In this document: positions 7,886 to 64,000 of the stretch, piece after piece
Layout: the number at the start of each line of letters is the position of its first letter
How positions within the stretch are numbered: the stretch's first letter is position 1
Source of the DNA: a virus
IMG/VR virus record: IMGVR_UViG_3300019888_000107
Span: 46,391 to 110,390 of that record
Length of the DNA stretch: 64,000 bases
Direction: 5' to 3' (one strand)
Notes under the pieces: generated by a model
Seen by the model: only the letters and a program-made list of their open reading frames with translations
Databases searched by the model: none
Told to the model about the DNA's origin: nothing
Program-made: the position numbers and the translations under genes

Positions 7886-7960
7886 GGTTGCCAACCTCGT
7901 GCACGGTTGCCAACCTATTGCACGCTTGCCAACCTTTTGCACGTTGCCAACCTACTGCAC
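7886..7960. repeat. Four tandem 18-19 bp iteron-like repeats (putative origin)
   Basis: G(G/C)TTGCCAACCTnnTGCAC at 7886, 7905, 7924, 7943, directly after the Rep-like stop. Confidence 0.85.
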
Positions 7961-8289
7961 GCGAATGAGCATAACCCGCACAGAAGGGCTCGACCATGAC
8001 CCCTGAACAAGATCAACCGTGGGGAACCTGTCAAGTCCTACTGAACGTGTGCGTAACGCAGTGAATGGCCCGTCTGGTCACCTGGCTAGGCGGGTCGTTT
8101 GCCCTGTGCACACGGGCTGTCAGAGCCTCGGTTCGGCGTAACACAAACGGTCGGTTTAGGACGATCATGGGAGCCATTGAAAAGCCCCGGTCAGCCCTGT
8201 CACACAATCCGTGAACTAAATCTCTGTAACGCCTTACCTGCACTTGTGGAATACGTTACACTCAAGCCAGTCAACAAAGGAGAACGATC

Positions 8290-16524: not shown

Positions 16525-19500
16525 CTAGGCGGCATCGGCCCAAGCGAATGCTGGCGCGGACGGTTCGGCAATGATCGAGATCCCGTTCATCTGCGTCTCC
16601 ATCGCGGCAACCAGCGCGGAGGTAGCCTCGACCGCATCCTCCGCCGGCACGAATACGTCCAACTCGTCGTGCACCGGCAACAATACGCACCGACCCCACC
16701 GCGTGTCGCCCCAGCGGATCAGGGCGTCGACCAGGAGTTCACGGGCACTGCCCTGAATCGCGGCGTTCGGACCCTTATGCGGGAGCCGCGGATCGAAATG
16801 GATGATCCGCCCTGAATAGCTGGGATACGCAACATGCCCGGCCTTGATGGCGTTGCGGATGTCAGCCGACCAGGCGGTCAGACCGGGTGTCATCGCGTCC
16901 AACGTATCAACGGCGGCTTGCGCAACCGCATGAGTGGTGCCACCCTGGGCGGCAAGGGTCGGGATACCCCCGCCGTATAAGCGTCCGAATACAATTCGTT
17001 TGGCCACATAGCGATGTTCTTTCTTCGGTGTGGGCTCGCCCGTCGGGTTTTTCTCGGATACCTCGGACGCTTTCGGACATGCCCCAAACACCTGCAACGC
17101 GATCTCAGCGTGCAAGTCACGACCCTCAGCGAGAAATTGCCGTAGCGTCGTATCCCCGGACAACGCGGCGGCCACTCGCAACTCCACACCACTAAAGTCC
17201 GCGCCAATCATCAACTGCCCCGGATCGGCGGTGATACACGCGCGAACTCCACCTTGCCTACTAAGTTGTTGAAGATTCAACCTTACACAAGACATGCGTC
17301 CCGTCACGGTGCCCAAGGTATAAACCGTCGGACGCACCCGACCATCACCACGCTCACACAGTTGCGTCATAGGCTCCAGGAACGTACCGATAACCGTCGA
17401 ATGATGCCGATAATCAAGTACCGCGCGAGCCACGTCCCCGACTGCACCCTGATCGAGTTCCGCAAGGGGTTCAAGGACTTCTTTGGCTACCGAGGGTGCA
17501 CCGGTTTTTTTCGATAGCGGCAACGTCGCGCCGAGCTCAACCATCACGGCGGCCACCTGCTTGCTCGACCCCGCGTTCTCAATCCCGAACGTTGCAACCC
17601 GTTCGCGGGCGGCGGCTTGGGCGGGTCGGTGTTCGGCCAGCTTCGCGGCTATGTGCTCGGCGTCCAGGCGTACCCCGTGATGAGCCACCCGAGCTGTCAT
17701 GCGTTGAGCGAGCCGTTCCCGATAGACAATCTTAGGGTCGGCGATAGGAAGTTCGCGTGCGACAGCGTGGGTGTCGAGGACATCAGACGCGGCGTAACGG
17801 ATCATCGTCGAGCGGGTGTAGTCGCATTGTGCCCAACCGGACCGTTCCACCGGAGTTTCAATCTTGGTATCGGTCAACCAACCGGCGGCCTTGAACAGTG
17901 CGGCACGTCCCTCACCAGCCCCCGGTGCGACCGAGCGGGTACCAAGCACAGCATCCGCCAACTTCTTCAAACCGGGATCGCTGCCGGTGGACTGCGGGTC
18001 GCCGAGCTTCGCGGGGATGACGGTGTCGTGCATCCGATCCCACGCCGATTCCAGCTCGATCAGCTCAGCGGCCACCAGAGGCACCAGATCAGCCGTGGCG
18101 GAGTGGGCGTGCAGGAACGTCGCTTCGGCCAGCAGCGTGGCAACCAGAGCCGTCTGAGCGGGGTCCTGCGCATCGAGCACCACCGCGGCTTCGTCGTCGC
18201 CGAGCTGGATGGTGCGCAGCGCGTACAGCGCATGGCCGACGGGGTAGCCGGTGTTCTCGATATCGACGGTGAGCGCGCCACCGGTTCGCGCCAGGCAATC
18301 CCGCACGACCTTGAGCACCTGGACCTCAGTGAGCTGCACCGCGTGACCACCGCGATCAACTCCAGCGGGCAGACCGATGTACTCGCCAGCGGCGGCGTCG
18401 ATACCAGCCCGGCACATGGCCAGCTTCTCCGCGACCTTGACTTTCGCCTTGAGCGTTTTCAGTTCCGCTCGCGCGTCGACCTTGCTGATGCCACGCGTAT
18501 TTGCCCACACCGTGACCTGATGGGGCGTCACGTTCCGTAGCGGCGAGTAGCCCTCGGGGAGCCCATCGGGCAGCGCTGCACCCGCGTCGGCGCATTTTCG
18601 CAGGTCAACGGCAGTATTTTCAGCCAAATCCGCCTCGGTGTGGAGGGTTTCGGCAGGTGTGGAGGGTTCCGAAATCCTTGTTTTTGCTGGTGAAGCCGCG
18701 TTTTTGTGATCAACTGTGGAGGGTGGAGGGTCGTCACATATAGGGGCCATATATGGCGCATGTGGTATACGTACTTCTTCTTCTTCTACTTCTTGTGTAT
18801 TTGTTGTCTGTAAACCCTCCACACCCTCCACAGAAGAAGAAAAAACGGGGGGTGAGCTGGGGTTTTCGGGTGTGGAGGGTTGAGCGCTAGACCCTCCACC
18901 AACCCTCCACGGACCCTCCACATTTGGAGTGATTCCAGTTTGGCGAGCCTGGTGAGCAGCGACCTCAGCCGAGATCGGTGCTCCCGGCGAACTCGCCGTC
19001 CCGGGACCCCCCGGAACAGAATCGAAAAATCCGTGCCCCCCGTCGACCCGGATCCGCAGTGCCCGGTACCGCCCATCCCTACGGTCGGTAGCGGGATAGT
19101 TCAGCTCGTTGAGGCGAACACCCCATTTTGTGATCTCCAGATGGAGGTTTTTGGCGACGTTGTGGTTGCGGCACCAGCCGATGAACGCGTCGTGCAGCGT
19201 CCCGGATCGGGTGCCGGCCTCCCACGGTTCGCAGGCGTCGTCCACCCACTGCTTGACGGGGTCCTGCTCCTCGGCGATCTCCTCAGCCTGGAAGCGGATG
19301 CCCGGCGGCGCGGCCGAGGTGAGTGCGGAGTTGGGGTCGGCTAACCAGGCGGCGGCTTCAGCCATCAGGAACGCCAGCACCCCCGGAGCCTCGCCGGCCC
19401 ACACCGCTGGGGTGAGCGCGCGCCGGACGGTTTCCACCACCTGGGGAGCACCCTCACACGGGATCAACCGGGCCCGCCGTCGGACGGCCGCATCGACCAG

Positions 19501-21570
19501 CGAAGGCTTGTGGTTGGCCGTGAGGATCAGCGTGTGGGTGGGCCGGAACGTGATGGGGTTTTGGTTCATCGCGTTCCCGGTCAGCTCGCCCCCACCGGAG
19601 TACCTCTTCAAGCGCTCCTGAGGGCCCTTGGCGTCTGACGGGGCCTCGTCGATGAAGGACAACCGCCGCCCTTTGAGCGCGAAAATAATCGAGTCATGGG
19701 AGTTGTCCCCACTGAGTAGTTTGGGGTTGGCGGCGTGCCCGTAGGTTCCCAAACACGACATGATGAGCGTGATGACCGACGTTTTCCCGGTTCCGGCTGG
19801 GCCTAGCAGAATCGGTAGCGCCGCGTCGGGATACCCGGTCACCGAAATGGACAGCACCCGCAGCACCCACGCTCGGATGGCGGCGTCCGGCCACACCGCG
19901 ACCAGCAGCGCGTCCCAATGCGGGGTGGGCATGATCTCGGGCATGACCCCGGCCGAGGATAGGTGCACGATTTTGTCGCCGACGTCGGTCAGCGCCGGAC
20001 CGTCCCCGCTGGCGCGCAAGTCATAGGGCATCCCTCCGGCCCACAAAATCTCCGGATCCGAGTCCAGATCGGCCAGTTTTACCGCGCTGGGATGGATACC
20101 ACCAGCAACAGTCCGCCGCATGGAAGCCGCAACAGCGTTGGCGCCCGCATTGTTTTCCATCCGTGTCCGTCGCGCGAACTGCCGGTGAGCGACGGTGTAC
20201 TCAGTTTTCTTTGTGGGTAGTTCGGGATCCCCAGCGGGCATCAGTTCGACAATTTCCTCCACGGCGCGCCCTGGCAGTGCGTCTCCGTGTAGTTCCCAGC
20301 ACAGCGGGCCCCGTTGCAGCCACCCGTTTCTGGTGTCGCTGGCATGGCGAATCATGGGCCGGCACCGATACAGCACAGCCTTGGCAATTTTGTGGTCGGT
20401 GTCGCATTGCGGATCGAACAGCTCAGCACCGATGACCTGCCGCCAGCCGTAGTCGATCGGGGCTGTGATCGGACCGGGCAACGGCTCGTAACGCTCCCCG
20501 GACGGGTCAAATTCACCACGGTCGTCAATGGGTGCAGGCGCCTGTACGGTGTCGTAGCCGCCGAGGGTCAGACACGGATCCCGATCAACCGGCGAACTCG
20601 CCCCGACGGCGGTGACGGCTTTGCGAGCGGAACTGAGTAGCATAGATTCGAACTCGTGGGCCCGGCCCTCACCCGACGTTAGTTCTTCCCACAACTCACG
20701 CAGGATCTCCAGCGCAACACCCACGCCCGGGTGCCCGCTGGCGCCGAGTTGCACCACGTTGTGGGTGCGGGCGGTCATGACGTCGTGACGAGAGCCGCTT
20801 TCGGCTTTACCCAGCTCAAGGACCGCCACCTGCGTCGCCCCGGCAACGTCGGAACACGCCACCCGCTCATCAGCCCGCAACGCGCACAGCAACTGCCAGC
20901 CGCTACCCGGGTCGGCCGCCGCCGCGCTCGCCTCGGTAGCCAACGCACCCAACTCCGCCACCCAACGAGCGGGCAATTCAGTCAGACCCGCCGGCCCCGG
21001 CACTACCCCATCACCCGCTAACCCACCGCCGGGGTCATACCAGCGATACCGCGCACCCTCGGCCAGATCGCGGTGAATCGACGGGGCCACCACGACGTAG
21101 CGGTGATGACGCTGGATGACCTCGATCGAGCCCCCCAAATGCGTGCCATACCGCCCGGCCGGAACGCGAAACAGCCGAATACCCGACGGCCCTGGTCCGG
21201 TCTCACTGCCCCGGGCGGTGGAGATCCAGGTAGCCGGCAGCACACCCCAGCTCGCCTCATACCCCGCGAGCACGTCGGCACCATTTTTGACTACCTCCCG
21301 GTCGGCCGCACCCGATTCCCCCGGCACGACCTTGGTGTAGTGGTCGACGTCAAGCCCGATCACCCCGGCGGGTAGCCGCAGCGCGATGGAGTAATCGGCG
21401 TACACACCCTCCGACCACGCGGTGAGCTGTTCGGGCGACGTGTCGATCCCGTCGGCGCCGGTGAACCCGGTGGGTGGTGGAAACTTCTCGGCGGGCGGAA
21501 CAGGCAGGATCCCGCGCCAGCCGGCGGTGTAGTACGCGCTCAGAGCGGATGCGAACACAGGGGAATTCAT
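16525..21570 (-). CDS. Fusion: Prim-Pol primase + D5/SF3 helicase + family A DNA polymerase with 3'-5' exonuclease
   Basis: GLDVD and YVVVAPSIH (Prim-Pol); GPAGTGKT, FIDE, LTANHKP (SF3); DIENTG (ExoI); ADFSGVELR, KRIVFGRLYG, VHDEL (PolA motifs A/B/C). Confidence 0.9.
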   Translation of the reverse strand: MNSPVFASALSAYYTAGWRGILPVPPAEKFPPPTGFTGADGIDTSPEQLTAWSEGVYADYSIALRLPAGVIGLDVDHYTKVVPGESGAADREVVKNGADVLAGYEASWGVLPATWISTARGSETGPGPSGIRLFRVPAGRYGTHLGGSIEVIQRHHRYVVVAPSIHRDLAEGARYRWYDPGGGLAGDGVVPGPAGLTELPARWVAELGALATEASAAAADPGSGWQLLCALRADERVACSDVAGATQVAVLELGKAESGSRHDVMTARTHNVVQLGASGHPGVGVALEILRELWEELTSGEGRAHEFESMLLSSARKAVTAVGASSPVDRDPCLTLGGYDTVQAPAPIDDRGEFDPSGERYEPLPGPITAPIDYGWRQVIGAELFDPQCDTDHKIAKAVLYRCRPMIRHASDTRNGWLQRGPLCWELHGDALPGRAVEEIVELMPAGDPELPTKKTEYTVAHRQFARRTRMENNAGANAVAASMRRTVAGGIHPSAVKLADLDSDPEILWAGGMPYDLRASGDGPALTDVGDKIVHLSSAGVMPEIMPTPHWDALLVAVWPDAAIRAWVLRVLSISVTGYPDAALPILLGPAGTGKTSVITLIMSCLGTYGHAANPKLLSGDNSHDSIIFALKGRRLSFIDEAPSDAKGPQERLKRYSGGGELTGNAMNQNPITFRPTHTLILTANHKPSLVDAAVRRRARLIPCEGAPQVVETVRRALTPAVWAGEAPGVLAFLMAEAAAWLADPNSALTSAAPPGIRFQAEEIAEEQDPVKQWVDDACEPWEAGTRSGTLHDAFIGWCRNHNVAKNLHLEITKWGVRLNELNYPATDRRDGRYRALRIRVDGGHGFFDSVPGGPGTASSPGAPISAEVAAHQARQTGITPNVEGPWRVGGGSSAQPSTPENPSSPPVFSSSVEGVEGLQTTNTQEVEEEEVRIPHAPYMAPICDDPPPSTVDHKNAASPAKTRISEPSTPAETLHTEADLAENTAVDLRKCADAGAALPDGLPEGYSPLRNVTPHQVTVWANTRGISKVDARAELKTLKAKVKVAEKLAMCRAGIDAAAGEYIGLPAGVDRGGHAVQLTEVQVLKVVRDCLARTGGALTVDIENTGYPVGHALYALRTIQLGDDEAAVVLDAQDPAQTALVATLLAEATFLHAHSATADLVPLVAAELIELESAWDRMHDTVIPAKLGDPQSTGSDPGLKKLADAVLGTRSVAPGAGEGRAALFKAAGWLTDTKIETPVERSGWAQCDYTRSTMIRYAASDVLDTHAVARELPIADPKIVYRERLAQRMTARVAHHGVRLDAEHIAAKLAEHRPAQAAARERVATFGIENAGSSKQVAAVMVELGATLPLSKKTGAPSVAKEVLEPLAELDQGAVGDVARAVLDYRHHSTVIGTFLEPMTQLCERGDGRVRPTVYTLGTVTGRMSCVRLNLQQLSRQGGVRACITADPGQLMIGADFSGVELRVAAALSGDTTLRQFLAEGRDLHAEIALQVFGACPKASEVSEKNPTGEPTPKKEHRYVAKRIVFGRLYGGGIPTLAAQGGTTHAVAQAAVDTLDAMTPGLTAWSADIRNAIKAGHVAYPSYSGRIIHFDPRLPHKGPNAAIQGSARELLVDALIRWGDTRWGRCVLLPVHDELDVFVPAEDAVEATSALVAAMETQMNGISIIAEPSAPAFAWADAA
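18640..18921. repeat. Ten GTGGAGGGT/ACCCTCCAC 9-mers around an AT-rich core; putative intragenic origin
   Basis: Forward at 18640, 18659, 18716, 18723, 18872; reverse at 18814, 18823, 18891, 18902, 18913. Confidence 0.8.
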
Positions 21571-27782: not shown

Positions 27783-30643
27783 GATGCCTTCCTCAATTTG
27801 CGAACAGACGCGCCACCCAGCAGCTCAGCCACAATGCGCGGATCCTGAACTAGGTCCCCAAGTTGCCCGGCTTTCTCTCGCAATACCGATCTCACACGGG
27901 TATCAATCGTGTTTTTGGCCAGCACATCTATGATTTCAATACATTCGTGCCCCTCACTCCCTATCCGATGCAGCCGATCTTCACTCTGGAGCGCTTCCAC
28001 CAGCGACCAGGGACGTTGCAAAAACACGCAACACGACGCCGCTGTGAGTGTGATTCCAACCCCGCCGGCCCCCGTGGTGGCGCAAATCAGATCCAGCTCA
28101 CCCGATTGGAACGCCGCAATTGTCTTAGTCCGTTCAGTCATGGATTGCCCACCGACGATGTAGCCCACCCGACGCCCAGCCCCAGCCGCGGCCTCCCCGG
28201 CCAACATCACCAACTGACGGGAGGGTGCGAATGCCACCACCGACGTTTCGGGGCGCTCGGCGCAGATTTCGAGGAGGGCGTCGACTTTCCAGCTGGGCGC
28301 TTTCAGGGTGACCGACTGGTGAATCTGCTCTACGTCGAGCCCGTTAACGGTAATGATTTCCGTTGTCGTGTGCACGTCTGTTGCGGCGGAAGCTAATTGC
28401 GACAGCCGGGTCAGCTGCGCCAGGATTCCCATGACGGACATTTCGGTGCCGTCGGGCAGCTCGGCGAGCATGTCGGCTTCCATCGCGTCATAGGTACGCC
28501 GGTATTCGGCCGGGAGTTCGACGGTGCGGACGCTGTACACCTTCGGGGGTAGCTCGGTGAGCACATCGGCTTTCGCCACCCGCCGGTACTGCCCGAGCAG
28601 CGCGGTGCGGAATTCCTCTTGAGTGGCCGGGTGCAGTCCCAGGACGGTTTCGGAGTAGTCGCCGGGGATGGACAGCAGGTAGCGGTTGCACCAGCGTTCT
28701 TTCGACGGCCACGCGGTCGGTGCCAGGGCGTCGAGGGTGGTCCAGAGGTTGCCAGGATGGTGTGTGATCGGGGTTCCGGATAGCGCGACGAAGTTGCTGG
28801 CACGACGGGCTAATTGACGCGATGCTCTAGACCGATTCGCGCCTACGGATTTGAGCAAATGTGACTCATCCGCCACAACAGACACAGGACGCATCCGCAG
28901 TAACGGGCCCGGTTTCGACGCACTACCGGTGTCGCGCCAGGCGGTGTCATAGCTGGACACATAGACATCAGCGATGCCGGACAAGGCATGTCGACGCGCC
29001 GGTATTCCACGCCAGGCGACGGTGCGCCACTGCGGTGCCCAGTTCTGGAAGGTTTCGACCCAGGGATCCACCACCGACGCCGGGCACACCACCACCACCG
29101 GCAGCACAGGAGCGACTTCCGCACGTTCGACCAAGCCCAAGATGGTGGTTGGGGTTTTCCCGGTGTTGTGGGTAGGAATCAGTGCGGTGTCGGTGAGGTA
29201 GACGTGCTCGTCGTCCGAGTCCAACTCGATGCAGCACACCTCGGCGTAGCCGGCACGTTCGATCGACTCGATCGTTCGAGGCGGGTTTCGTCGCTGCACC
29301 CGTTGCGCGGCAGCTGCCCAGATGTCGCCCTTGCGGGGTAGCGCGAAGGGATTCGGCCCGTCCGCGGGAAAGCGGATTAGCACGCGGTGCTTCGGGAGAC
29401 ACTCGACCCGCTCGCCGCTCGCATTACGGTAGCCGGCGGGCTGGGGGTCCGATTCGGTGACAACGGCTCCCAGTGAGCGCGCGAGCCAGGCGACATCCGC
29501 GGCAAGCTGGGGTGAGGCCGACGAGAACTCCACCCCGGCGCCAACCTTGTTAACCGTCCCGTCGGTGTCGAGGAGTCCGGCCAGGACGCTACGACGAACA
29601 CCTTCTGACGCGAGTCGATAACACGAATGCACGAATTTGGCGGCCGCCCCCTCCCGGGCACCGAGGTCAGCCAACTGGGATGGAAGCTCGCCATTGCGAT
29701 GGAAATGCACACTCGGACAACGGTCGCCAGTTGGTCGCCGTGAGGAGGTGCCGAGTTGAGCTGCTGCTTTCTCAACCCGATCTAGGATGAAAGCGTCCGG
29801 GCACGTAATCGACAGATCAGCCCCACCGAGGGCGCCGTCGCCCAGGAGCGCGCCGTAGACGTACGAATCTAGCGGCAGCTCGGCGGAGGCGTTACCGAGA
29901 TCTCGCAGAACCGGCTGCTGGGGAAGGAAGAACTTCGCAGCTCGGCCTTGCCTGCCGTTCGGACCGTGTAACCCGGCTAGCGCGAGTAGGGACGTGGTCA
30001 GTACGCGGCCGCCTCCACGATTCCCGTGACGCTCGTTATGTGTGTAGACGTGCCAGCGGTGCTCAGCAGTGGCCAGCGTGCTGGTTCGATCGTTGAGGGT
30101 TACGCGGTAGACGGCGTGCCCGTCGGAGAACCTCTTGACCTGCCGGACGCGCTGTTGACACCCATTCGCGCCGTACACGGTGTCGCCCGGTGCGAGATCA
30201 CCAAGCCGGGTCCAGCCCTCCGGTGTGAGGATCGGCGTTGTCACCGGCTGCGGACCTGCCTCGTCGAAAAGTAAAGCCCGCCCAAGCGCGGAAATCATCT
30301 GAGCGCCCGACACTTGATACGAGCGCGGCACCATCCCCGGCGGTGGCGTAACCGACAGCCCAGCCGGCGACGAATCGGGTAACCGGGCCGCTACCTGGGA
30401 CGTAATCCACTCGGTCAGCCGGGGACCCGGCGCCCACCCCGTTCCGAATGTGGAGGCGAGTTGCACGACGCCCGGCCAACTCGCGGCCATGACCAGCGCA
30501 CCGGGCGGTTTCGATTGCTTGACCAGGGGCGTGCACAACGCGATCTGCCGGGATGCGTGGATGACGTCGTGCTCCGCGCCGGCCGCCATCAACACGATGC
30601 TGGATTCGTCCGCGGATAGCTCACCGACGATCGTGGCTGGCAT
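27779..30643 (-). CDS. SNF2-type helicase interrupted by an intein
   Basis: Spliced Walker A FDEAG|TGKT, DESH, LSGTP, GITLT, QSEDRLHRIG. Confidence 0.9.
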   Translation of the reverse strand: MPATIVGELSADESSIVLMAAGAEHDVIHASRQIALCTPLVKQSKPPGALVMAASWPGVVQLASTFGTGWAPGPRLTEWITSQVAARLPDSSPAGLSVTPPPGMVPRSYQVSGAQMISALGRALLFDEAGPQPVTTPILTPEGWTRLGDLAPGDTVYGANGCQQRVRQVKRFSDGHAVYRVTLNDRTSTLATAEHRWHVYTHNERHGNRGGGRVLTTSLLALAGLHGPNGRQGRAAKFFLPQQPVLRDLGNASAELPLDSYVYGALLGDGALGGADLSITCPDAFILDRVEKAAAQLGTSSRRPTGDRCPSVHFHRNGELPSQLADLGAREGAAAKFVHSCYRLASEGVRRSVLAGLLDTDGTVNKVGAGVEFSSASPQLAADVAWLARSLGAVVTESDPQPAGYRNASGERVECLPKHRVLIRFPADGPNPFALPRKGDIWAAAAQRVQRRNPPRTIESIERAGYAEVCCIELDSDDEHVYLTDTALIPTHNTGKTPTTILGLVERAEVAPVLPVVVVCPASVVDPWVETFQNWAPQWRTVAWRGIPARRHALSGIADVYVSSYDTAWRDTGSASKPGPLLRMRPVSVVADESHLLKSVGANRSRASRQLARRASNFVALSGTPITHHPGNLWTTLDALAPTAWPSKERWCNRYLLSIPGDYSETVLGLHPATQEEFRTALLGQYRRVAKADVLTELPPKVYSVRTVELPAEYRRTYDAMEADMLAELPDGTEMSVMGILAQLTRLSQLASAATDVHTTTEIITVNGLDVEQIHQSVTLKAPSWKVDALLEICAERPETSVVAFAPSRQLVMLAGEAAAGAGRRVGYIVGGQSMTERTKTIAAFQSGELDLICATTGAGGVGITLTAASCCVFLQRPWSLVEALQSEDRLHRIGSEGHECIEIIDVLAKNTIDTRVRSVLREKAGQLGDLVQDPRIVAELLGGASVRKLRKAS
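29165..30253 (-). mobile_element. 363-aa intein with LAGLIDADG endonuclease, class 3-type (Pro1)
   Basis: Starts PQPVTTPILTPEGW; block B TAEHRW; LLGDG / LAGLLDTDG; block F VCC; ends THN before +1 Thr. Confidence 0.88.
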
Positions 30644-36723: not shown

Positions 36724-37398
36724 TTAGACCTTGTCCCACTTCGTTACGGTGTAGGTCCCGTAGCCCTGTGAACGCGTCCCACCGATGCCTTGCTTCGCAC
36801 CGGTGAGCCAGATCAGCGCCCACTGTTCGTCGGTGATGAGGAAGTCCGTGACCACGGTGAAGTGCAGTTCCACGTTGTCGCAGTACTCGTCGTAGCGGAT
36901 CCCGTTACCGGTGTGGACGTGCACGAAACGCTGCTCGATTCCCGTCGCCTCGGTGCGGTCGAAATGCAGTTTGTTGTCCACCACCATGACGTGCTCGGCG
37001 ATAAAACCCGTGGACCCCTTATTGGTCGCACCCCACCCCCGTGACTTGAGCTTGCCGGCCGCAACACACACGTTGCACGCCTCCTTGATAGCTGATTTCA
37101 GACAACGGCCTTCCAGGTATAGGCCCCGGTCGTCACGCTTAAAACCGAGAAGGTGCCTATTGGTGTTGACCTCTTCCACGGCTGCCTCGGGACTGACGCC
37201 CCGCTCCAGCATGGTCGTGGCCACCATCTCCCGAATGGCCTGGTCGGACTGCTCGCCCATATGACGGCGGATCCACCCCTCGGCCACCTTCGGATCGGTC
37301 GGGGTACCGCCGGCAATGCGGTCCACCAAAAGCGTCCCCTTGTAGGTAAAGGGCCATGCTTGCTTGTGGTAGGCGGCGAATACATCAGTTGAGCTCAT
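36724..37398 (-). CDS. Stand-alone Cas7-group RAMP protein (Csm3/Csf2-like)
   Basis: beta1 FTYKGTLLVDRIAGG; LYLEGRCLKSAIKEA (cf. IPGSSLKGALR); thumb ..RYDEY; C-terminal G-rich loop GIGGTRSQGYGTYTV; RBS AAAGGAG. Confidence 0.8.
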   Translation of the reverse strand: MSSTDVFAAYHKQAWPFTYKGTLLVDRIAGGTPTDPKVAEGWIRRHMGEQSDQAIREMVATTMLERGVSPEAAVEEVNTNRHLLGFKRDDRGLYLEGRCLKSAIKEACNVCVAAGKLKSRGWGATNKGSTGFIAEHVMVVDNKLHFDRTEATGIEQRFVHVHTGNGIRYDEYCDNVELHFTVVTDFLITDEQWALIWLTGAKQGIGGTRSQGYGTYTVTKWDKV

Positions 37399-37414
37399 TT
37401 CGGGTTCTCCTTTG

Positions 37415-38525
37415 TTGGGTTGGTGAGGATAGTCGGACGGGAGGGGATTGGGGCGGGGCGGGGCGGCCCGTCGGAACGGGTTGGTGGGGCGGAGGGCGGG
37501 GGGTGGGGCAGGCGCGGCGCGGCTTGTCGTACGGGACTGGTTCGGGATGGCGCGGTTTGTCGGATGGGGCAGGCGTTGAGTCGGGTAGTCGGAGCGAATT
37601 GGTCACGGTCTCGGGCAGGCGCGGCTTGTCGGAGGGGGTACGGCCTGATGTGGCCTGGAAACGGGACGGCTCGTCGGGATGGGCAGGAAACAGGTTTGGT
37701 GCGGATAGTCGGGTGTGGGCAGACACGATCGGGGCTTGGCATGGGGTGGTTTTGTCGGAGCGGACCGGCGTGGCGCGGCGTGGCATGTCGGGTTAGGGCG
37801 GGAGCGGGACCGGATCGGGTAGTCGGAGGGGGCTGGTTTGGGCTGCCTCTGGGATGTCGGATGGGATTGGGATGGGTGGGCTTGTCGGTATGGGCCGGGA
37901 CGGCTCGGTACGGCATGGCTCGTCGGATAGGAGCGGTCCGGTGCGGCGCGGTAGGGCACGGCTGGTCGGAATGGTGCGGGGTTGATGTGGTTGGGGTCGG
38001 CCAGTCGGATGGGAGGGGAGGGGGTCGGGGCGGAACGGGGTCGGCCCGTCGGATGGGAGGGGGTCGGGGCGGTAGGGCCTGGGGTGGCTTGTCGGAGGGG
38101 GTCGTCTTGGGATGGCTTGTCGGAGTGGGTCGGTTAGTCGGATTGGATCGGTCTGGGGCGTGGCGGGTTGGCTAGTCGGGATGGGTCTGATCAGGGTTCG
38201 GTTTGTCGAATGGCTTGGGGGGATATGAGCGGGCTCGTCGGTTAACGGGGTTGGGCGGACGCGGGTCGGCTCGTCGGTGCGGGTAGGTAGGGATTGGCTC
38301 GTCGGAGGGGGTCGGGACGGCGCTGGCTGGTTAGGCTCGTCGGCGTGGTTCGGGTTGGATAGTCGGATTGGGTGGGATCTTGGCGTGGCTTGTCGGAAGG
38401 GCATGGTGCCGGGATGGCTTGTCGGAGTGGATCGGGGCTGGATGGGATGGCTTGTCGGAAGGGCATGGTGTGGTTACGGGATGGTCAGTCGGACAGAGCT
38501 GACGGGGATGGGGACGGAGTGTCGA
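37415..38525 (-). repeat. Non-coding array 1: 32 CGAC-anchored units with ~5-nt CC periodicity (putative guide RNA array)
   Basis: GTCG anchors on + from 37432 to 38521, typically GGCTTGTCGGA, separated by GGNNN pentamers; fills the intergenic space up to the RAMP RBS. Confidence 0.9.
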
Positions 38526-38534
38526 GCCGGAATG

Positions 38535-38753
38535 TCATTTCTTATCGGAGTTCTTCAACAGCATCACGATCCACCAGCCCGGCAGATAAAATGGCCACAA
38601 CCACACGCAGCACAGGGACATGACCGCTGCACCCACGTAGTCTTCGGTTTCAATGGGGTCGCCCATGGAGTTGAGAAACCATCGTGCGGTGGGTACCAGG
38701 AACCCCAGCACGCCCGCTAGGTACACCATCAGCACAATCGTTCCGGGGTCCAT
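38535..38753 (-). CDS. 72-aa two-TM membrane protein between the arrays
   Basis: Two hydrophobic helices, LWPFYL. Confidence 0.6.
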   Translation of the reverse strand: MDPGTIVLMVYLAGVLGFLVPTARWFLNSMGDPIETEDYVGAAVMSLCCVWLWPFYLPGWWIVMLLKNSDKK

Positions 38754-38867
38754 CAGCGGCGGGTTGCCTGGTTGTAGGCCGCCGCCCGCATGGAAGCCGC
38801 TACCTCAGCGTTGATCCGAGTGACGTCGTCCACATCGGGTGGCAGGGTGCTCATGGGGATCGACTCG

Positions 38868-39120
38868 AATCGTGTCGAATGGCATGGGTCGGGTAGGCGC
38901 GGCTTGTCGAACGACATGGGTCGGGTAGGGGCGGCTTGTCGACCGGCTAGGCAGTGTTGGCCGGTCGGGGCGGCGTGGGTAGGGATGGTCACGGCTTGGC
39001 CTGTCGGATGGGGTTGGGGCGGCAGGGAGTAGCTTGTCGAAGGGGGTAGGGAGGGGATGTATCGGCATGTCGAAAGGCCTGGGTCGGGGATGGCGCGGCT
39101 CGTCGAAACGGGAGTGTCGT
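38868..39120 (-). repeat. Non-coding array 2: ~9 units with the same grammar (anchor mostly TTCGAC)
   Basis: GTCG anchors at 38874, 38906, 38938, 38964, 39003, 39036, 39069, 39102, 39116. Confidence 0.85.
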
Positions 39121-39660
39121 TTACCGCCCGTACTTGCGCAGAGAATCAAACATCGTGGTGAGTTCGTGATCGGCGTAATGCTCGCTGACGGTTCGGGTGC
39201 CAACCTTTTTGGCCAGGGCAGTCATAAACGCGTCCATGAGTCGGTTGTCTTCGGTCCGTCGTGCGTAAGTGCCCGCGACGTAGAGCAGGTCATCCCGTCG
39301 CAGTTTCCCGAGTGGTTTGCGGGAGCCGTCTTCCAACGTGAAGGGCACGTCCAGCCACCCTCGCAATTGCGTACTGTCGCCGGCCTGGTGTGTCGTGACC
39401 GCTTCGGCGAATGCGGCGGGTCGTGCTCGGTGCCGGGCGGCGGTGCGGATCGAACGGTCCCGGTCATTGATCGCCATTCGAATGAACTGCGTCGCCTGAG
39501 CCCGCAGCCACCCGTCGACCAGCTCGGGATCCTCAACCCGCAGTCGCTCTACTATCTCAGTGGCCACCACACAGGACGTATAGGCGCCGGAGCTGGTGGC
39601 GCTGTCAATCACCCGACGCATTTCGGTGCCGTAGTCGCGCACGGCGACGGACGTCGTCAT
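39121..39660 (-). CDS. Hypothetical alpha-helical protein abutting array 2
   Basis: 179-aa ORF with RBS AGAGG; its stop is immediately followed by the array. Confidence 0.65.
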   Translation of the reverse strand: MTTSVAVRDYGTEMRRVIDSATSSGAYTSCVVATEIVERLRVEDPELVDGWLRAQATQFIRMAINDRDRSIRTAARHRARPAAFAEAVTTHQAGDSTQLRGWLDVPFTLEDGSRKPLGKLRRDDLLYVAGTYARRTEDNRLMDAFMTALAKKVGTRTVSEHYADHELTTMFDSLRKYGR

Positions 39661-39759: not shown

Positions 39760-40581
39760 CTATGCGGCGGCCTTGCGCCGGCTGTTCTCGCGGAACCAGT
39801 TGCCCAGGCGAATACCCTTCGCACCGTTCAGGATCTCTACGCCGGCCGCGGCCACGGCGAACCGACGCGAGCAGTGCGTCTTTTGCTTGGTCTTCTCGGC
39901 CAGGGCCAGCAGCGCGTTGAGGCCACCGGGGATGGTGGCGAACCGGGCGATGACGTCGGTGTCGTGGAGCTGGCCTTCGTAGCGATGCAGCAGGATCCCG
40001 ATCCCGTCGATGACCGCCGAGGCCAACCCGAAGTCGCCATAAGCGGTGTGCACGATCCGCAAGGTGCGGCTCAGGTTGTCGCCGCCGGTCTGCTGGTAGA
40101 TACGCCGCAGGGTGCCGATGCAGTGCACCGAGCCCTCCGTCCTGTCCATCGACACGTGCAGGCCCAGCTCGTCGAGGATGTCGCTGAGGGCGCAGTCTTC
40201 CTCGCGGCCCGCCTGGACACCGACCCGATACCTATCGAAGCCGTTGACAGCCAACACATTGTTGAGACGCAGGAACATTTCGGCTTCCTGCTGATCGGTG
40301 AGGCCGCTGAACACGGCGCAATCGAGCTTCGTCTCACCGAGCCCCATTCCACGCATCGCCTCAATACGGTGCTGTCCGTCGATCACGTAGTGGTGACCGT
40401 CGCGGTAGTTCAGGGTGGGCACACCCACCTGCTCGATGTCGAACTGCGCGATCAGGTGGTTGACGTGGTAGGGCTTGAGTTCGCGCTGCACGAGCGGTGA
40501 GACGCGCATGACGGCGAGGGCGACGCTCTGAATTTCAGCGTGTCGCTGAACGTCTCCGTCGGTGTTAGGCTGCTTGGGCAC
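39760..40581 (-). CDS. ParB/Srx-like (DGQHR, DUF6551-like) protein
   Basis: VQREL..HYVIDGQHRIEA..QQEAEMFLRLN. Confidence 0.75.
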   Translation of the reverse strand: MPKQPNTDGDVQRHAEIQSVALAVMRVSPLVQRELKPYHVNHLIAQFDIEQVGVPTLNYRDGHHYVIDGQHRIEAMRGMGLGETKLDCAVFSGLTDQQEAEMFLRLNNVLAVNGFDRYRVGVQAGREEDCALSDILDELGLHVSMDRTEGSVHCIGTLRRIYQQTGGDNLSRTLRIVHTAYGDFGLASAVIDGIGILLHRYEGQLHDTDVIARFATIPGGLNALLALAEKTKQKTHCSRRFAVAAAGVEILNGAKGIRLGNWFRENSRRKAAA

Positions 40582-48440: not shown

Positions 48441-48513
48441 AGCGGGATGGTGCAGCTGGTAGCATACTGGGCTCATAACCCGGAGATCGTGGGTTCGAAT
48501 CCCACTCCCGCAA
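48441..48513 (+). tRNA. tRNA-fMet (CAT)
   Basis: Cloverleaf; 1:72 mismatch; GGG/CCC anticodon stem. Confidence 0.92.
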
Positions 48514-48517
48514 CTAC

Positions 48518-48590
48518 GGTGAGATAGCTCAGCTGGTAGAGCGCCGATCTGAAGAGTCGGAGGCCGCTGGTTCGACACCAGCTCTTACCA
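48518..48590 (+). tRNA. tRNA-Phe (GAA)
   Basis: Cloverleaf; CCGAT-CTGAAGA-GTCGG. Confidence 0.92.
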
Positions 48591-48618
48591 CGTGGGTCTA
48601 GGCCAGCCGATGCACGAA

Positions 48619-48693
48619 CGGGATGTAGCTCAGTTGGTTCAGAGTGTCGGTTTTGGGAACCGAAAGTCGTGGGTTCGAGTCCCGCCATCCCGA
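48619..48693 (+). tRNA. tRNA-Pro (TGG)
   Basis: Cloverleaf; TCGGT-TTTGGGA-ACCGA. Confidence 0.93.
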
Positions 48694-48717
48694 CTAAAGG
48701 TTCTACTGAGACACTAT

Positions 48718-48805
48718 GGCGAGTTGACCGAGTGGTATGGTAGCCGTTTCGAAAACGGTAGTCGGGGGCAACCCCGCGCAGGTTCGAATCCTGCACTCGC
48801 CGCCA
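48718..48805 (+). tRNA. tRNA-Ser (CGA)
   Basis: Long variable arm, G73, encoded CCA. Confidence 0.93.
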
Positions 48806-48806
48806 A

Positions 48807-48888
48807 CCAGGGCCGCCACCGATGGCGAGGTGGGACGGGTTGTAGCCCCGTTGCTTCGGCTTAGGGAGTTCGAATCTCTCGCCCTGGA
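48807..48888 (+). tRNA. tRNA-Tyr (GTA)
   Basis: ACGGG-TTGTAGC-CCCGT; variable arm; C1:G72. Confidence 0.82.
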
Positions 48889-48896
48889 CTACACAA

Positions 48897-48970
48897 GCCC
48901 CCGTCGCTCAACTGGGAGAAGCAACGGCCTTAAGCACCGTACAGTGAGTGTTCGAATCACTCCGGGGGTA
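48897..48970 (+). tRNA. tRNA-Leu (TAA), short variable arm
   Basis: ACGGC-CTTAAGC-ACCGT; T-arm GAGTG-TTCGAAT-CACTC. Confidence 0.82.
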
Positions 48971-48980
48971 CGTGGTAGAT

Positions 48981-49054
48981 CTCGGTGTATCCCAACTGGT
49001 AGAGGACGCCGGCTCAAACCCGGTGGGTTGCGAGTTCGACTCTCGCCACCGAGA
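48981..49054 (+). tRNA. tRNA-Leu (CAA), short variable arm
   Basis: GCCGG-CTCAAAC-CCGGT. Confidence 0.88.
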
Positions 49055-49071
49055 CGTAGTATTCTAGCAAC

Positions 49072-49145
49072 GCCCGGGTATCCCAACTGGAAGAGGACCA
49101 TGGCTTAGACCCATGTGGTTGAGAGTTCGAATCTCTCCTCGGGCA
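49072..49145 (+). tRNA. tRNA-Leu (TAG), short variable arm
   Basis: CATGG-CTTAGAC-CCATG. Confidence 0.88.
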
Positions 49146-49257
49146 CGAGAGAGGGGTAGACCGGGTGATGACTCCCGCGTGACGCTCAACGTCGGGACGC
49201 CGATACCGAGCTAATGGTGTAGACAGCACGCCCCTCGTAAATTCACCCATTTCACAA

Positions 49258-49329
49258 TTCCCTGTAGTGTAACTGGCAGCACGCCGTCTTTTGGTGTCGG
49301 TAGTCCAGGTCCGACTCCTGGTGGGGAAG
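49258..49329 (+). tRNA. tRNA-Gln (TTG)
   Basis: CCGTC-TTTTGGT-GTCGG; T-loop TCCGACT; G73. Confidence 0.82.
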
Positions 49330-49331
49330 CT

Positions 49332-49410
49332 GTGAGCGAAGCCAAAGTGGCCGAGGCGCCAGGTTGTGGACCTGGAAATTTAGCGGGTTCAAGTCCCGTC
49401 GCTCACCCCA
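49332..49410 (+). tRNA. tRNA-His (GTG)
   Basis: CCAGG-TTGTGGA-CCTGG; C73-CCA. Confidence 0.88.

Positions 49411-63944: not shown

Positions 63945-64000
<56 letters not shown>

What the first reader, a model, noticed from the sequence alone, without database searches (positions are those of the whole stretch)
37415..38525. Two-level grammar of array 1: CGAC anchor + (NNNCC)n, with unit lengths quantised by 5 nt
Seen (gene-sense strand): units such as CGAC-AAGCC-ATCCC-GGCACC-ATGCC-CTTC and CGAC-GAGCC-AATCC-CTACC-TACCC-GCAC. I counted 32 anchors by hand. Spacings are 18-56 nt, and 15 of 31 are exactly 5n+3 (18, 23, 28, 33, 38, 43); most others are 1-2 nt longer. The CC frame is conserved while the intervening bases differ between units, so this is neither a microsatellite nor a codon-period repeat. 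One local duplication (ACCATGCCCTTCCGACAAGCCA twice, ~38386-38469) suggests growth by unit duplication and then diversification. Inference: the anchor is a processing/handle site and the variable bases encode the target.
Basis: partly seen in the sequence, partly recalled or inferred. Interest (0 to 1): 0.9.

Follow-up and report, generated by a model that had tools for sequence, protein, structure and literature searches.

The report
Phage VIPR guide-RNA array, C-rich type
The 1.1-kb five-base-step repeat is real and is the guide-RNA array of a VIPR system, a CRISPR-related, phage-borne RNA-guided DNA silencer first described in 2026 preprints, so it is a new member of a known kind, with an unusual C-rich orientation.

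Summary
The gap 37399-38534 is non-coding, 51% G on the + strand, and has 33 GTCG/CGAC anchors. The period-5 signal has z about 8.7 against dinucleotide shuffles, and 16 of 32 anchor spacings equal 5n+3 (p = 1.4e-4).

The downstream gene (36724-37398, - strand) folds as a Cas7-type RAMP (Z 10-10.8). With a conserved helical partner gene (39121-39660), it brackets the same kind of array in about 30 actinophage and prophage loci. This matches the VIPR systems of three 2026 bioRxiv preprints: Vipr RAMP, vap gene and pentamer guide RNAs.

In relatives, whole units bounded by CGAC spell rival-phage genes under the published 1-nt-skip rule, with skips at wobble positions: 16/16 on the vipr VAEGW codons and 18/18 on Walker-A codons. 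So the reading that variable bases encode the target is supported for the clade. No target was found for this window's own guides.

Two differences from the reference system:
- The fixed bases are CC on the gene-sense strand.
- A 3-nt GAC replaces the structured tail.

This scan has already met VIPR loci in at least 325 genomes.

The parts
36724..37398 (-). vipr-like gene: 224-aa stand-alone Cas7-type RAMP protein, the presumed effector that coats the guides one protomer per pentamer
   Evidence: The AF2 model has pLDDT 76. Foldseek hits only Cas7-family chains (E 3e-6). VIA-align gives Z 10-10.8 over residues 12-224 against type VII Cas7, Csm3, Cmr4 and Cas7-11. BFVD hits are viral RAMP proteins. 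There is a weak collinear hhalign match to SUSP1 Vipr that includes the G-loop (E 0.058). The family has more than 630 members.
37399..38534 (-). Array 1: about 33 units of (NN-YCC)n separated by GAC (sense strand); on the + strand, (GGN-NN)n separated by GTC. It runs to within about 30 nt of the vipr start codon.
   Evidence: The sense RNA is almost unstructured (-168 kcal/mol over 1136 nt). No Rfam family matches.
38535..38753 (-). 72-aa predicted membrane protein gene lying between the two arrays. It is absent at this place in relatives and is probably an insertion that split one array.
   Evidence: ORF and translation. No Pfam hit. In relatives the array runs uninterrupted from the partner gene to vipr.
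38860..39120 (-). Array 2: about 11 short units, mostly with the TTCGAC anchor variant, including a 32-nt tandem duplication. It starts directly after the stop codon of the partner gene with the same leader motif, CGACACTCC(C)GT, as array 1.
   Evidence: Period-5 z = 5.6.
39121..39660 (-). vap-like partner gene: 179-aa all-helical protein, conserved immediately upstream of the array
   Evidence: A homologue sits upstream of the array in 21 of the 24 viral loci that reach far enough. The AF2 model has pLDDT 92 and no informative fold match.

Best explanation
The stretch is the guide-RNA (vrRNA) array of a VIPR system.

Proposed mechanism:
- The operon partner gene - array - vipr is transcribed.
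- The Cas7-like Vipr protein polymerises on the RNA, one protomer per 5-nt step. It grips the fixed bases of each step and displays the two variable bases.
- The displayed dinucleotides read double-stranded DNA two bases out of every three (the 1-nt skip rule), and binding silences genes of competing phages.
- Each unit between two GAC punctuation marks is one short guide of 3-8 steps here and about 7 in relatives. The 3-nt GAC breaks the register of the filament and marks where one guide ends and the next begins.

What is shown:
- The lattice.
- The RAMP fold of the neighbouring protein.
- The conserved cassette.
- Gapped, codon-phased matches of whole units in relatives.

What is inferred from the preprints:
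- The filament.
- DNA binding and silencing.

Strand question (about 60:40). I think the guide here is the C-rich RNA of the gene-sense strand, a YCC/NN code. The alternative is the canonical G-rich RNA made from the opposite strand.
For: 1. Period-5 lattice with a 3-nt insert. In phase-exact units, positions 1-2 carry 1.98 bits of entropy each. Positions 3, 4 and 5 are C in 57, 67 and 94% of pentamers. This is a '2 variable + 3 fixed' pentamer.

2. The adjacent protein has a Cas7-type RAMP fold.

3. The cassette helical partner - array - RAMP is kept while other neighbours change. This holds in about 21 viral loci and 9 genome loci, 8 actinobacterial and one Caldilineaceae. Period 5, never 6, recurs in nearly all of their arrays.

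4. The preprints describe exactly this: Vipr RAMP, vap gene and pentamer vrRNAs in phage intergenic regions, one protomer per repeat, a 1-nt skip rule, targets in rival phages including vipr itself, and skips on wobble positions (10.64898/2026.04.26.720920 and .720927; 10.64898/2026.10.15.759431).

5. The rule works in this clade: 44 perfect hits against 10 for shuffled guides, and 3-9 for other skips. It includes matches of 16/16 on 8 vipr genes and 18/18 on Walker-A codons, both bounded by anchors.

6. For the sense strand:
- CC lies on the gene-sense strand in every locus.
- The array starts at the partner gene's stop codon and ends 10-25 nt before the vipr ribosome-binding site, with no promoter-like site.
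- In L148 it lies between other co-directional genes.
- In the SUSP1 control, the guides are co-oriented with vipr.
- The G-contacting D177/W178 of SUSP1 Vipr align with small residues here (a weak alignment).
Against: - No RNA evidence could be obtained, so expression, processing and strand are unproven.
- No target was found for this window's own guides: not in the local loci and own genome, not in three IMG/VR pattern scans, not in 401 Actinomycetes genomes, and not in Vipr/partner proteins.
- About half of the units are out of phase or very short (3-5 steps), which gives little specificity.
- There is no sequence-level link to a proven Vipr beyond a weak hhalign (probability under 1%).
- All experimentally studied Vipr proteins read GG. 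On the antisense strand the array fits the preprint's 'NNNGG' variant. The C-code reading is therefore not the only one.
Confidence: 0.85

Rival explanations
1. It is the same VIPR system, but with canonical chemistry. The functional guides are the G-rich RNAs (GGN-NN steps ending in GTC), transcribed antisense to vipr and its partner gene. The C-rich sense RNA is only the operon's leader.
For: - Every Vipr studied so far grips GG.
- The preprint lists NNNGG-type repeats among its seven types.
- Antisense pentamers read G(94%) G(67%) N N N (derived).
- The target matches are strand-symmetric, so they fit this reading equally well.
Against: - No promoter-like site for antisense transcription was found.
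- The array is squeezed between co-directional genes in all loci.
- The base after GG is mostly a purine, which SUSP1 Vipr sterically excludes.
- Guides are co-oriented with vipr in SUSP1.
Confidence: 0.33
2. It is a decaying or non-guide relic: an array that once served VIPR but in this phage is only a C-rich untranslated leader. Such a leader could act as a Rho-loading or regulatory region for vipr expression.
For: - No targets were found for this window's units.
- Half of the units are irregular or very short.
- A 1.1-kb C-rich, G-poor, unstructured RNA is what Rho prefers (Rho preference from general knowledge).
Against: - The lattice here is among the strongest of all arrays examined (z 9.4).
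- A recent duplication implies ongoing turnover.
- vipr and its partner gene are intact.
- Targets of uncultured phages are expected to be missing from the small databases searched.
Confidence: 0.08
3. It is a set of DNA-level iterated binding sites (replication origin iterons, or a centromere for the nearby ParB-like DUF6551 protein), not an RNA.
For: - A ParB-like gene lies at 39760-40581.
- The locus sits in the replication gene block.
- There are many copies of an 11-bp site.
Against: - The ParB-like gene is not conserved next to the array in relatives: 1 of 30 loci.
- The strict strand polarity and the 5-nt lattice are not iteron features.
- The codon-phased gapped matches are not explained.
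Confidence: 0.03
4. It is a CRISPR-like or toxIN-like repeat array: fixed repeats with contiguous spacers, or an antitoxin RNA cut by the adjacent protein.
For: - The array lies directly upstream of an RNA-binding or RNase-fold protein.
- Anchors recur at intervals of 18-56 nt.
Against: - There is no long conserved repeat. Only 5-11 nt are fixed.
- Unit lengths vary in steps of 5.
- The only Cas-related gene in the conserved cassette is the lone Cas7-type RAMP; no other gene recurs with it.
- toxI-type units are identical copies, whereas these differ.
- Contiguous (skip 0) matching gives no excess of hits.
Confidence: 0.02

Closest known systems
VIPR systems (Vipr RAMP + vap + vrRNA); reference: type II system of Escherichia phage SUSP1 (bioRxiv 10.64898/2026.04.26.720920, 10.64898/2026.04.26.720927, 10.64898/2026.10.15.759431)
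   Same: - Phage-borne two-gene cassette with a lone minimal RAMP.
- Long flanking non-coding region built of 5-nt steps with 3 fixed and 2 hypervariable bases.
- Gapped 2-of-3 matching to coding DNA of rival phages with the skip on wobble positions, including guides aimed at other vipr genes.
   Different: - The fixed bases are CC on the gene-sense strand (GG only on the antisense strand). In SUSP1 the YNNGG tracts are co-oriented with vipr.
- The third fixed base does not fit GGY on the G strand.
- There is no roughly 40-nt structured 3' tail. Units abut, separated by only GAC.
- Guides are shorter (3-8 steps here, against 9-16) and far more numerous (about 45, against 4).
- The partner protein has no recognisable DNA-binding fold.
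Non-canonical and 'staggered' VIPR arrays (fig. S18 legend of 10.64898/2026.04.26.720920; 21 non-GGY clusters in 10.64898/2026.10.21.760802)
   Same: - Back-to-back guides in which the end of one marks the start of the next.
- Pentamer motifs other than GGY, next to Vipr-like folds.
   Different: The motifs named in the accessible text are NNNGG, YNNNG, NNNNG, GAC/NN, CAC/NN, WGT/NN and TGH/NN. A CC-based sense-strand motif with a GAC separator is not named there. I could not see the figures or tables.
Class 1 CRISPR crRNA-Cas7 backbones (Csm3, Cmr4, type VII Cas7)
   Same: - Same protein fold (Z about 10).
- A filament on single-stranded guide RNA with a fixed footprint per subunit.
   Different: - The footprint is 5 nt, not 6.
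- The guide is read discontinuously.
- There is no repeat-spacer array, no Cas5, Cas6, Cas10 or Cas11, and no adaptation genes.

Membership tests
VIPR system | Vipr protein: a minimal stand-alone RAMP (single RRM core, glycine-rich loop, thumb) | tested here: met
   All top PDB matches are Cas7-family RAMPs (Foldseek E 3e-6; VIA Z 10-10.8 over residues 12-224). The invariant C-terminal glycine-rich loop G-I-G-x-x-R-S-Q-G-x-G is seen. BFVD matches are viral RAMP proteins.
VIPR system | Detectable relationship to an experimentally proven Vipr (SUSP1) | tested here: inconclusive
   hhalign of the family profile against the SUSP1 194-aa protein gives E 0.058 and probability under 1%. The alignment is collinear over 111 columns and includes helix 1 and the G-loop. 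An HMM search of the SUSP1 genome found nothing. No Vipr structure was in the PDB copy.
VIPR system | Minimal locus: vipr plus one accessory (vap) gene, carried by a phage or prophage | tested here: met
   The 179-aa helical partner is conserved next to the array and RAMP in 21 of 24 informative viral loci, and no other neighbour is conserved. The record is a 110-kb virus. Relatives lie in IMG/VR contigs and actinobacterial genomes.
VIPR system | Flanking non-coding tandem pentamers with fixed and hypervariable positions (at least 4 steps) | tested here: met
   Lag-5 z = 8.7. Runs of 5-8 NNNGG steps occur on the + strand. Entropy is 1.98 bits at two positions against 0.44 at the fixed C/G.
VIPR system | Canonical GGY/NN motif on the RNA strand, co-oriented with vipr as in SUSP1 | tested here: not met
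   GG lies on the strand antisense to vipr in all loci. The base after GG is a purine in about 71% of steps. SUSP1 tracts are co-oriented with vipr. The preprints accept variant motifs, so this does not exclude membership.
VIPR system | Targets recognised by the variable dinucleotides with one skipped base; natural targets in rival mobile elements; skip on wobble positions | tested here: met
   Met for the clade: 44 against 10 perfect hits, specific to skip 1, and two anchor-bounded units at 16/16 and 18/18. For this window's own units the test was inconclusive.
VIPR system | Structured invariant 3' tail after each repeat tract (type II) | tested here: not met
   Units abut with only a GAC/GTC trinucleotide and semi-fixed flanking pentamers. 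The sense RNA is nearly unstructured. No Rfam hit. The preprint describes tail-less 'staggered' arrays in other types.
VIPR system | vrRNAs expressed and bound by Vipr; DNA binding and silencing | not testable with these tools
No RNA-protein modelling tool was available.
CRISPR-Cas | Array of long identical direct repeats with contiguous spacers, plus a cas operon | tested here: not met
   Only 5-11 nt recur. Contiguous matching gives no excess of hits. The only Cas-related gene in the conserved cassette is the lone Cas7-type RAMP; no other neighbour gene recurs with it.

The most novel reading that the evidence does not exclude
In this actinophage branch the VIPR code has been re-specified. 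The guide would be the C-rich sense RNA co-transcribed with vipr. The protein would grip YCC instead of GGY; its G-contacting Asp/Trp are replaced by small residues and two contact charges are swapped. A bare GAC trinucleotide would serve as the guide separator in place of a folded tail, allowing about 45 mini-guides in 1.4 kb.
Probability: 0.45. Interest if true: 0.7.

Novelty: new member of a known kind. Interest (0 to 1): 0.5.

Why it matters
VIPR is a very recent addition to RNA-guided biology, and only enterobacterial and Pseudomonas systems have been studied at the bench.

This locus and its roughly 30 relatives show three things:
- The same gapped code operates in phages of Actinomycetes.
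- Arrays there hold tens of very short, tail-less guides.
- Some of these guides are aimed at the conserved cores of rival phages' vipr and ATPase genes.

If the guides prove to be C-based, the RAMP-RNA grip would be evolvable. That bears on how programmable such proteins are and on how CRISPR backbones arose. As a class, however, it is already in print and already common in this scan.

Tried and rejected
Searches for relatives:
- Near-identical phage search found no match.
- A 14-base anchor pattern in IMG/VR gave only single chance hits.
- A single-protein locus search found nothing. The family alignment was needed.

Family and structure searches:
- Rfam: nothing.
- A PDB sequence profile search gave no meaningful hit.
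- The partner protein gave no informative fold match. Foldseek found no match with E at or below 0.001; VIA-wide gave Z at or below 5.9 on a helical hairpin only. A Cas11-like role therefore could not be tested.

Targets of this window's own guides:
- Local loci plus own genome at K = 6-8 gave chance-level hits.
- Degenerate-peptide matching to 125 Vipr and partner proteins gave chance-level hits.
- IMG/VR scan of the 8-step guide gave 6 unrelated contexts.
- 401 Actinomycetes genomes gave 0 hits against about 9 for the reversed control.

Other:
- Promoter and terminator scans around the arrays here and in L148 were uninformative.
- Target matches cannot decide the RNA strand, because the two hypotheses predict reverse-complement patterns.

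Readings considered and rejected, for the reasons given under rivals:
- A Pro-rich coding repeat.
- A CsrA or TRAP-type sponge.
- A primase-site cluster.
- A Rho trap as the primary function.

Full report
**What is there**

The window is the last 64 kb of a 110,390-bp IMG/VR virus record. Positions 37399-38534 form a gap between two - strand genes. One is a 224-aa gene at 36724-37398. The other is a 72-aa membrane-protein gene at 38535-38753.

- The + strand of the gap is 51% G and 17% C.
- It holds 33 anchors of the form GG-CTT-GTCGGA, which read TCCGAC-AAG-CC on the gene-sense strand.
- Autocorrelation of G or GG peaks at lag 5 with z = 8.6-8.7 against 300 dinucleotide-preserving shuffles. 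It peaks again at lags 10, 23, 28, 33/34 and 38/39.
- 16 of 32 anchor spacings equal 5n+3 (p = 1.4e-4).
- The logo shows a lattice of GG every 5 nt into which the anchor inserts exactly 3 nt.
- A second, shorter array with a TTCGAC variant lies at 38860-39120. It starts with the same leader motif as array 1.
- Nothing else in the 110-kb genome has this skew.

**Surroundings**

- The 224-aa protein has no Pfam or PHROG hit.
- Its AlphaFold model (pLDDT 76) matches only Cas7-family RAMPs in the PDB: type VII Cas7, Csm3, Cmr4, Cas7-11 and Csf2. Foldseek gives E 3e-6, and VIA-align gives Z 10-10.8 across residues 12-224. In BFVD it matches viral RAMP proteins.
- The family has more than 630 members at about 55-65% identity, some from Pseudonocardia, Actinomadura and Nocardiopsis.
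- A profile search retrieved 30 viral loci and 9 genome loci, 8 of them actinobacterial.
- In nearly all loci that reach far enough, a strongly C-rich (on the gene strand) non-coding stretch of 0.1-2.2 kb adjoins the RAMP gene.
- A homologue of the 179-aa helical protein at 39121-39660 sits on the array's other side in 21 loci. No other neighbour is conserved.
- The related arrays carry the same anchor, YCCGAC-WA-CCC. They show period 5, never 6, and the commonest spacing class is 5n+3.

**Identification**

A literature search found three 2026 bioRxiv preprints on VIPR systems. They report:
- a lone ancestral RAMP (Vipr) and an accessory gene (vap);
- guide RNAs (vrRNAs) made of tandem pentamers, in which a fixed trinucleotide (GGY) alternates with two hypervariable bases;
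- one Vipr protomer bound per pentamer;
- variable dinucleotides that read double-stranded DNA with one base skipped per step;
- natural targets in rival phages and satellites, often with the skipped base on codon wobble positions, and sometimes in other vipr genes.

Variant motifs (NNNGG and others) and tail-less 'staggered' arrays are mentioned. A fourth preprint reports further non-GGY motifs.

As a control I located the reference system in phage SUSP1:
- vipr lies at 28474-29061 on the - strand.
- YNNGG tracts of 4-12 steps lie on the same strand.

**Testing the code in this clade**

In phase-exact units from all arrays, pentamer positions 1-2 carry 1.98 bits of entropy each. Positions 3, 4 and 5 are C in 57, 67 and 94% of pentamers. 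This is the '2 variable + 3 fixed' design.

I took the two variable bases, used skips of 0-3, and searched the related loci and this genome with the arrays masked.
- Windows of 7 pentamers gave 44 perfect hits at skip 1, against 10 for shuffled guides.
- Skips 0, 2 and 3 gave 3, 6 and 9 hits.

Two units account for the signal.
- **L130 unit.** It has 8 pentamers lying exactly between two CGAC anchors. It matches 16/16 on the codons for K-V-A-E-G-W-L-K, the invariant core of Vipr, in 8 other loci. These loci differ at the skipped wobble bases. Its own vipr matches only 14/16.
- **L136 unit.** This first unit has 9 pentamers, again exactly between anchors. It matches 18/18 on V-R-G-P-H-G-L-G-K (Walker A) codons in L139, 16/16 in L155 and 14/14 in L165. 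The tenth pentamer, which is the next anchor, does not match.

The variable bases therefore do encode targets, and the anchor is the guide boundary.

**This window's own guides**

The longest clean units have 7-8 steps. None found a convincing target:
- local loci plus own genome;
- Vipr and partner proteins;
- three IMG/VR pattern scans, which gave chance-like, non-homologous contexts;
- 401 Actinomycetes genomes, with 0 hits against about 9 for the reversed control.

This is inconclusive, because the rivals of an uncultured phage are probably not in these sets. About half of the units are irregular or short. That fits the 'internal degeneracy' the preprint notes, but it leaves room for partial decay.

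**Which strand is the guide?**

The gapped matches cannot tell, because the two hypotheses predict reverse-complement patterns.

For the C-rich sense RNA:
- The CC strand is the gene-sense strand in every locus.
- The array begins at the stop codon of the partner gene and ends 10-25 nt before the vipr ribosome-binding site. No promoter-like site was found on either strand in this window, and in relatives the array reaches the ribosome-binding site directly. vipr mRNA must therefore carry the array.
- In L148 the array lies between other co-directional genes.
- SUSP1 guides are co-oriented with vipr.
- On the G strand, the base after GG is mostly a purine, which SUSP1 Vipr excludes.
- In a weak alignment, the G-contacting D177/W178 of SUSP1 align with small residues, R138 aligns with Glu and E71 with Arg.
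- The sense RNA is almost unstructured.

For the G-rich antisense RNA:
- All studied Viprs read GG.
- The preprint lists NNNGG variants.

I put this at about 60:40 for the sense strand. RNA data could not be obtained.

**Verdict**

The finding is real and is a VIPR guide array with its Vipr and partner genes. The kind is already described, and this scan has met it in at least 325 genomes. Another note on a related actinophage also proposes C-based guides. It is therefore a new member of a known kind.

The points worth following are the C-rich sense orientation, the bare GAC separator, and the very large number of very short guides.

Noticed in passing
L130:4426-4990 (array) and L130:5001-5651 (vipr): The L130 guide matches the vipr VAEGW codons of 8 rival loci at 16/16. 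It matches its own vipr at 14/16, differing only at the first dinucleotide, where its own codon is Arg instead of Lys. This may be a self-avoidance change, or autoregulation.
   Followed up: partly
window 48441-49410: A cluster of 10 tRNA genes on the + strand (Met, Phe, Pro, Ser, Tyr, Leu x3, Gln, His).
   Followed up: no
window 16525-21570 (-): A single 1681-aa ORF that joins a primase-like N-terminal part (residues 5-840) to a DNA polymerase part (residues 1036-1679), according to PHROG hits.
   Followed up: no
window 39760-40581 (-): A ParB-like DUF6551 protein just upstream of the VIPR cassette. It is found next to the cassette in only 1 of 30 related loci, so it is probably not part of the system.
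   Followed up: partly
window 38535-38753 (-) and 38753-38854 (-): A 72-aa membrane-protein gene, and possibly a 33-aa ORF, sit between array 2 and array 1. Relatives have one uninterrupted array, so these look like an insertion into the array.
   Followed up: partly
G000:C1:41877-41906 (+), outside the window: An isolated run of 6 NNNGG pentamers elsewhere in the genome. It could be a solo guide or chance.
   Followed up: no
window 7886-7961: Four tandem copies of a 19-nt unit (GGTTGCCAACCT...) that contains a short palindrome. It is possibly an operator or binding-site cluster.
   Followed up: no
window 63949-64000: A (TC)26 dinucleotide run at the very end of the record. It may be an assembly end artefact.
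   Followed up: no
L167:4001-5250: A 39%-identical RAMP homologue in a Caldilineaceae (Chloroflexota) MAG. It has the C-rich array downstream of the gene instead of upstream, so the cassette is not confined to Actinomycetes.
   Followed up: no
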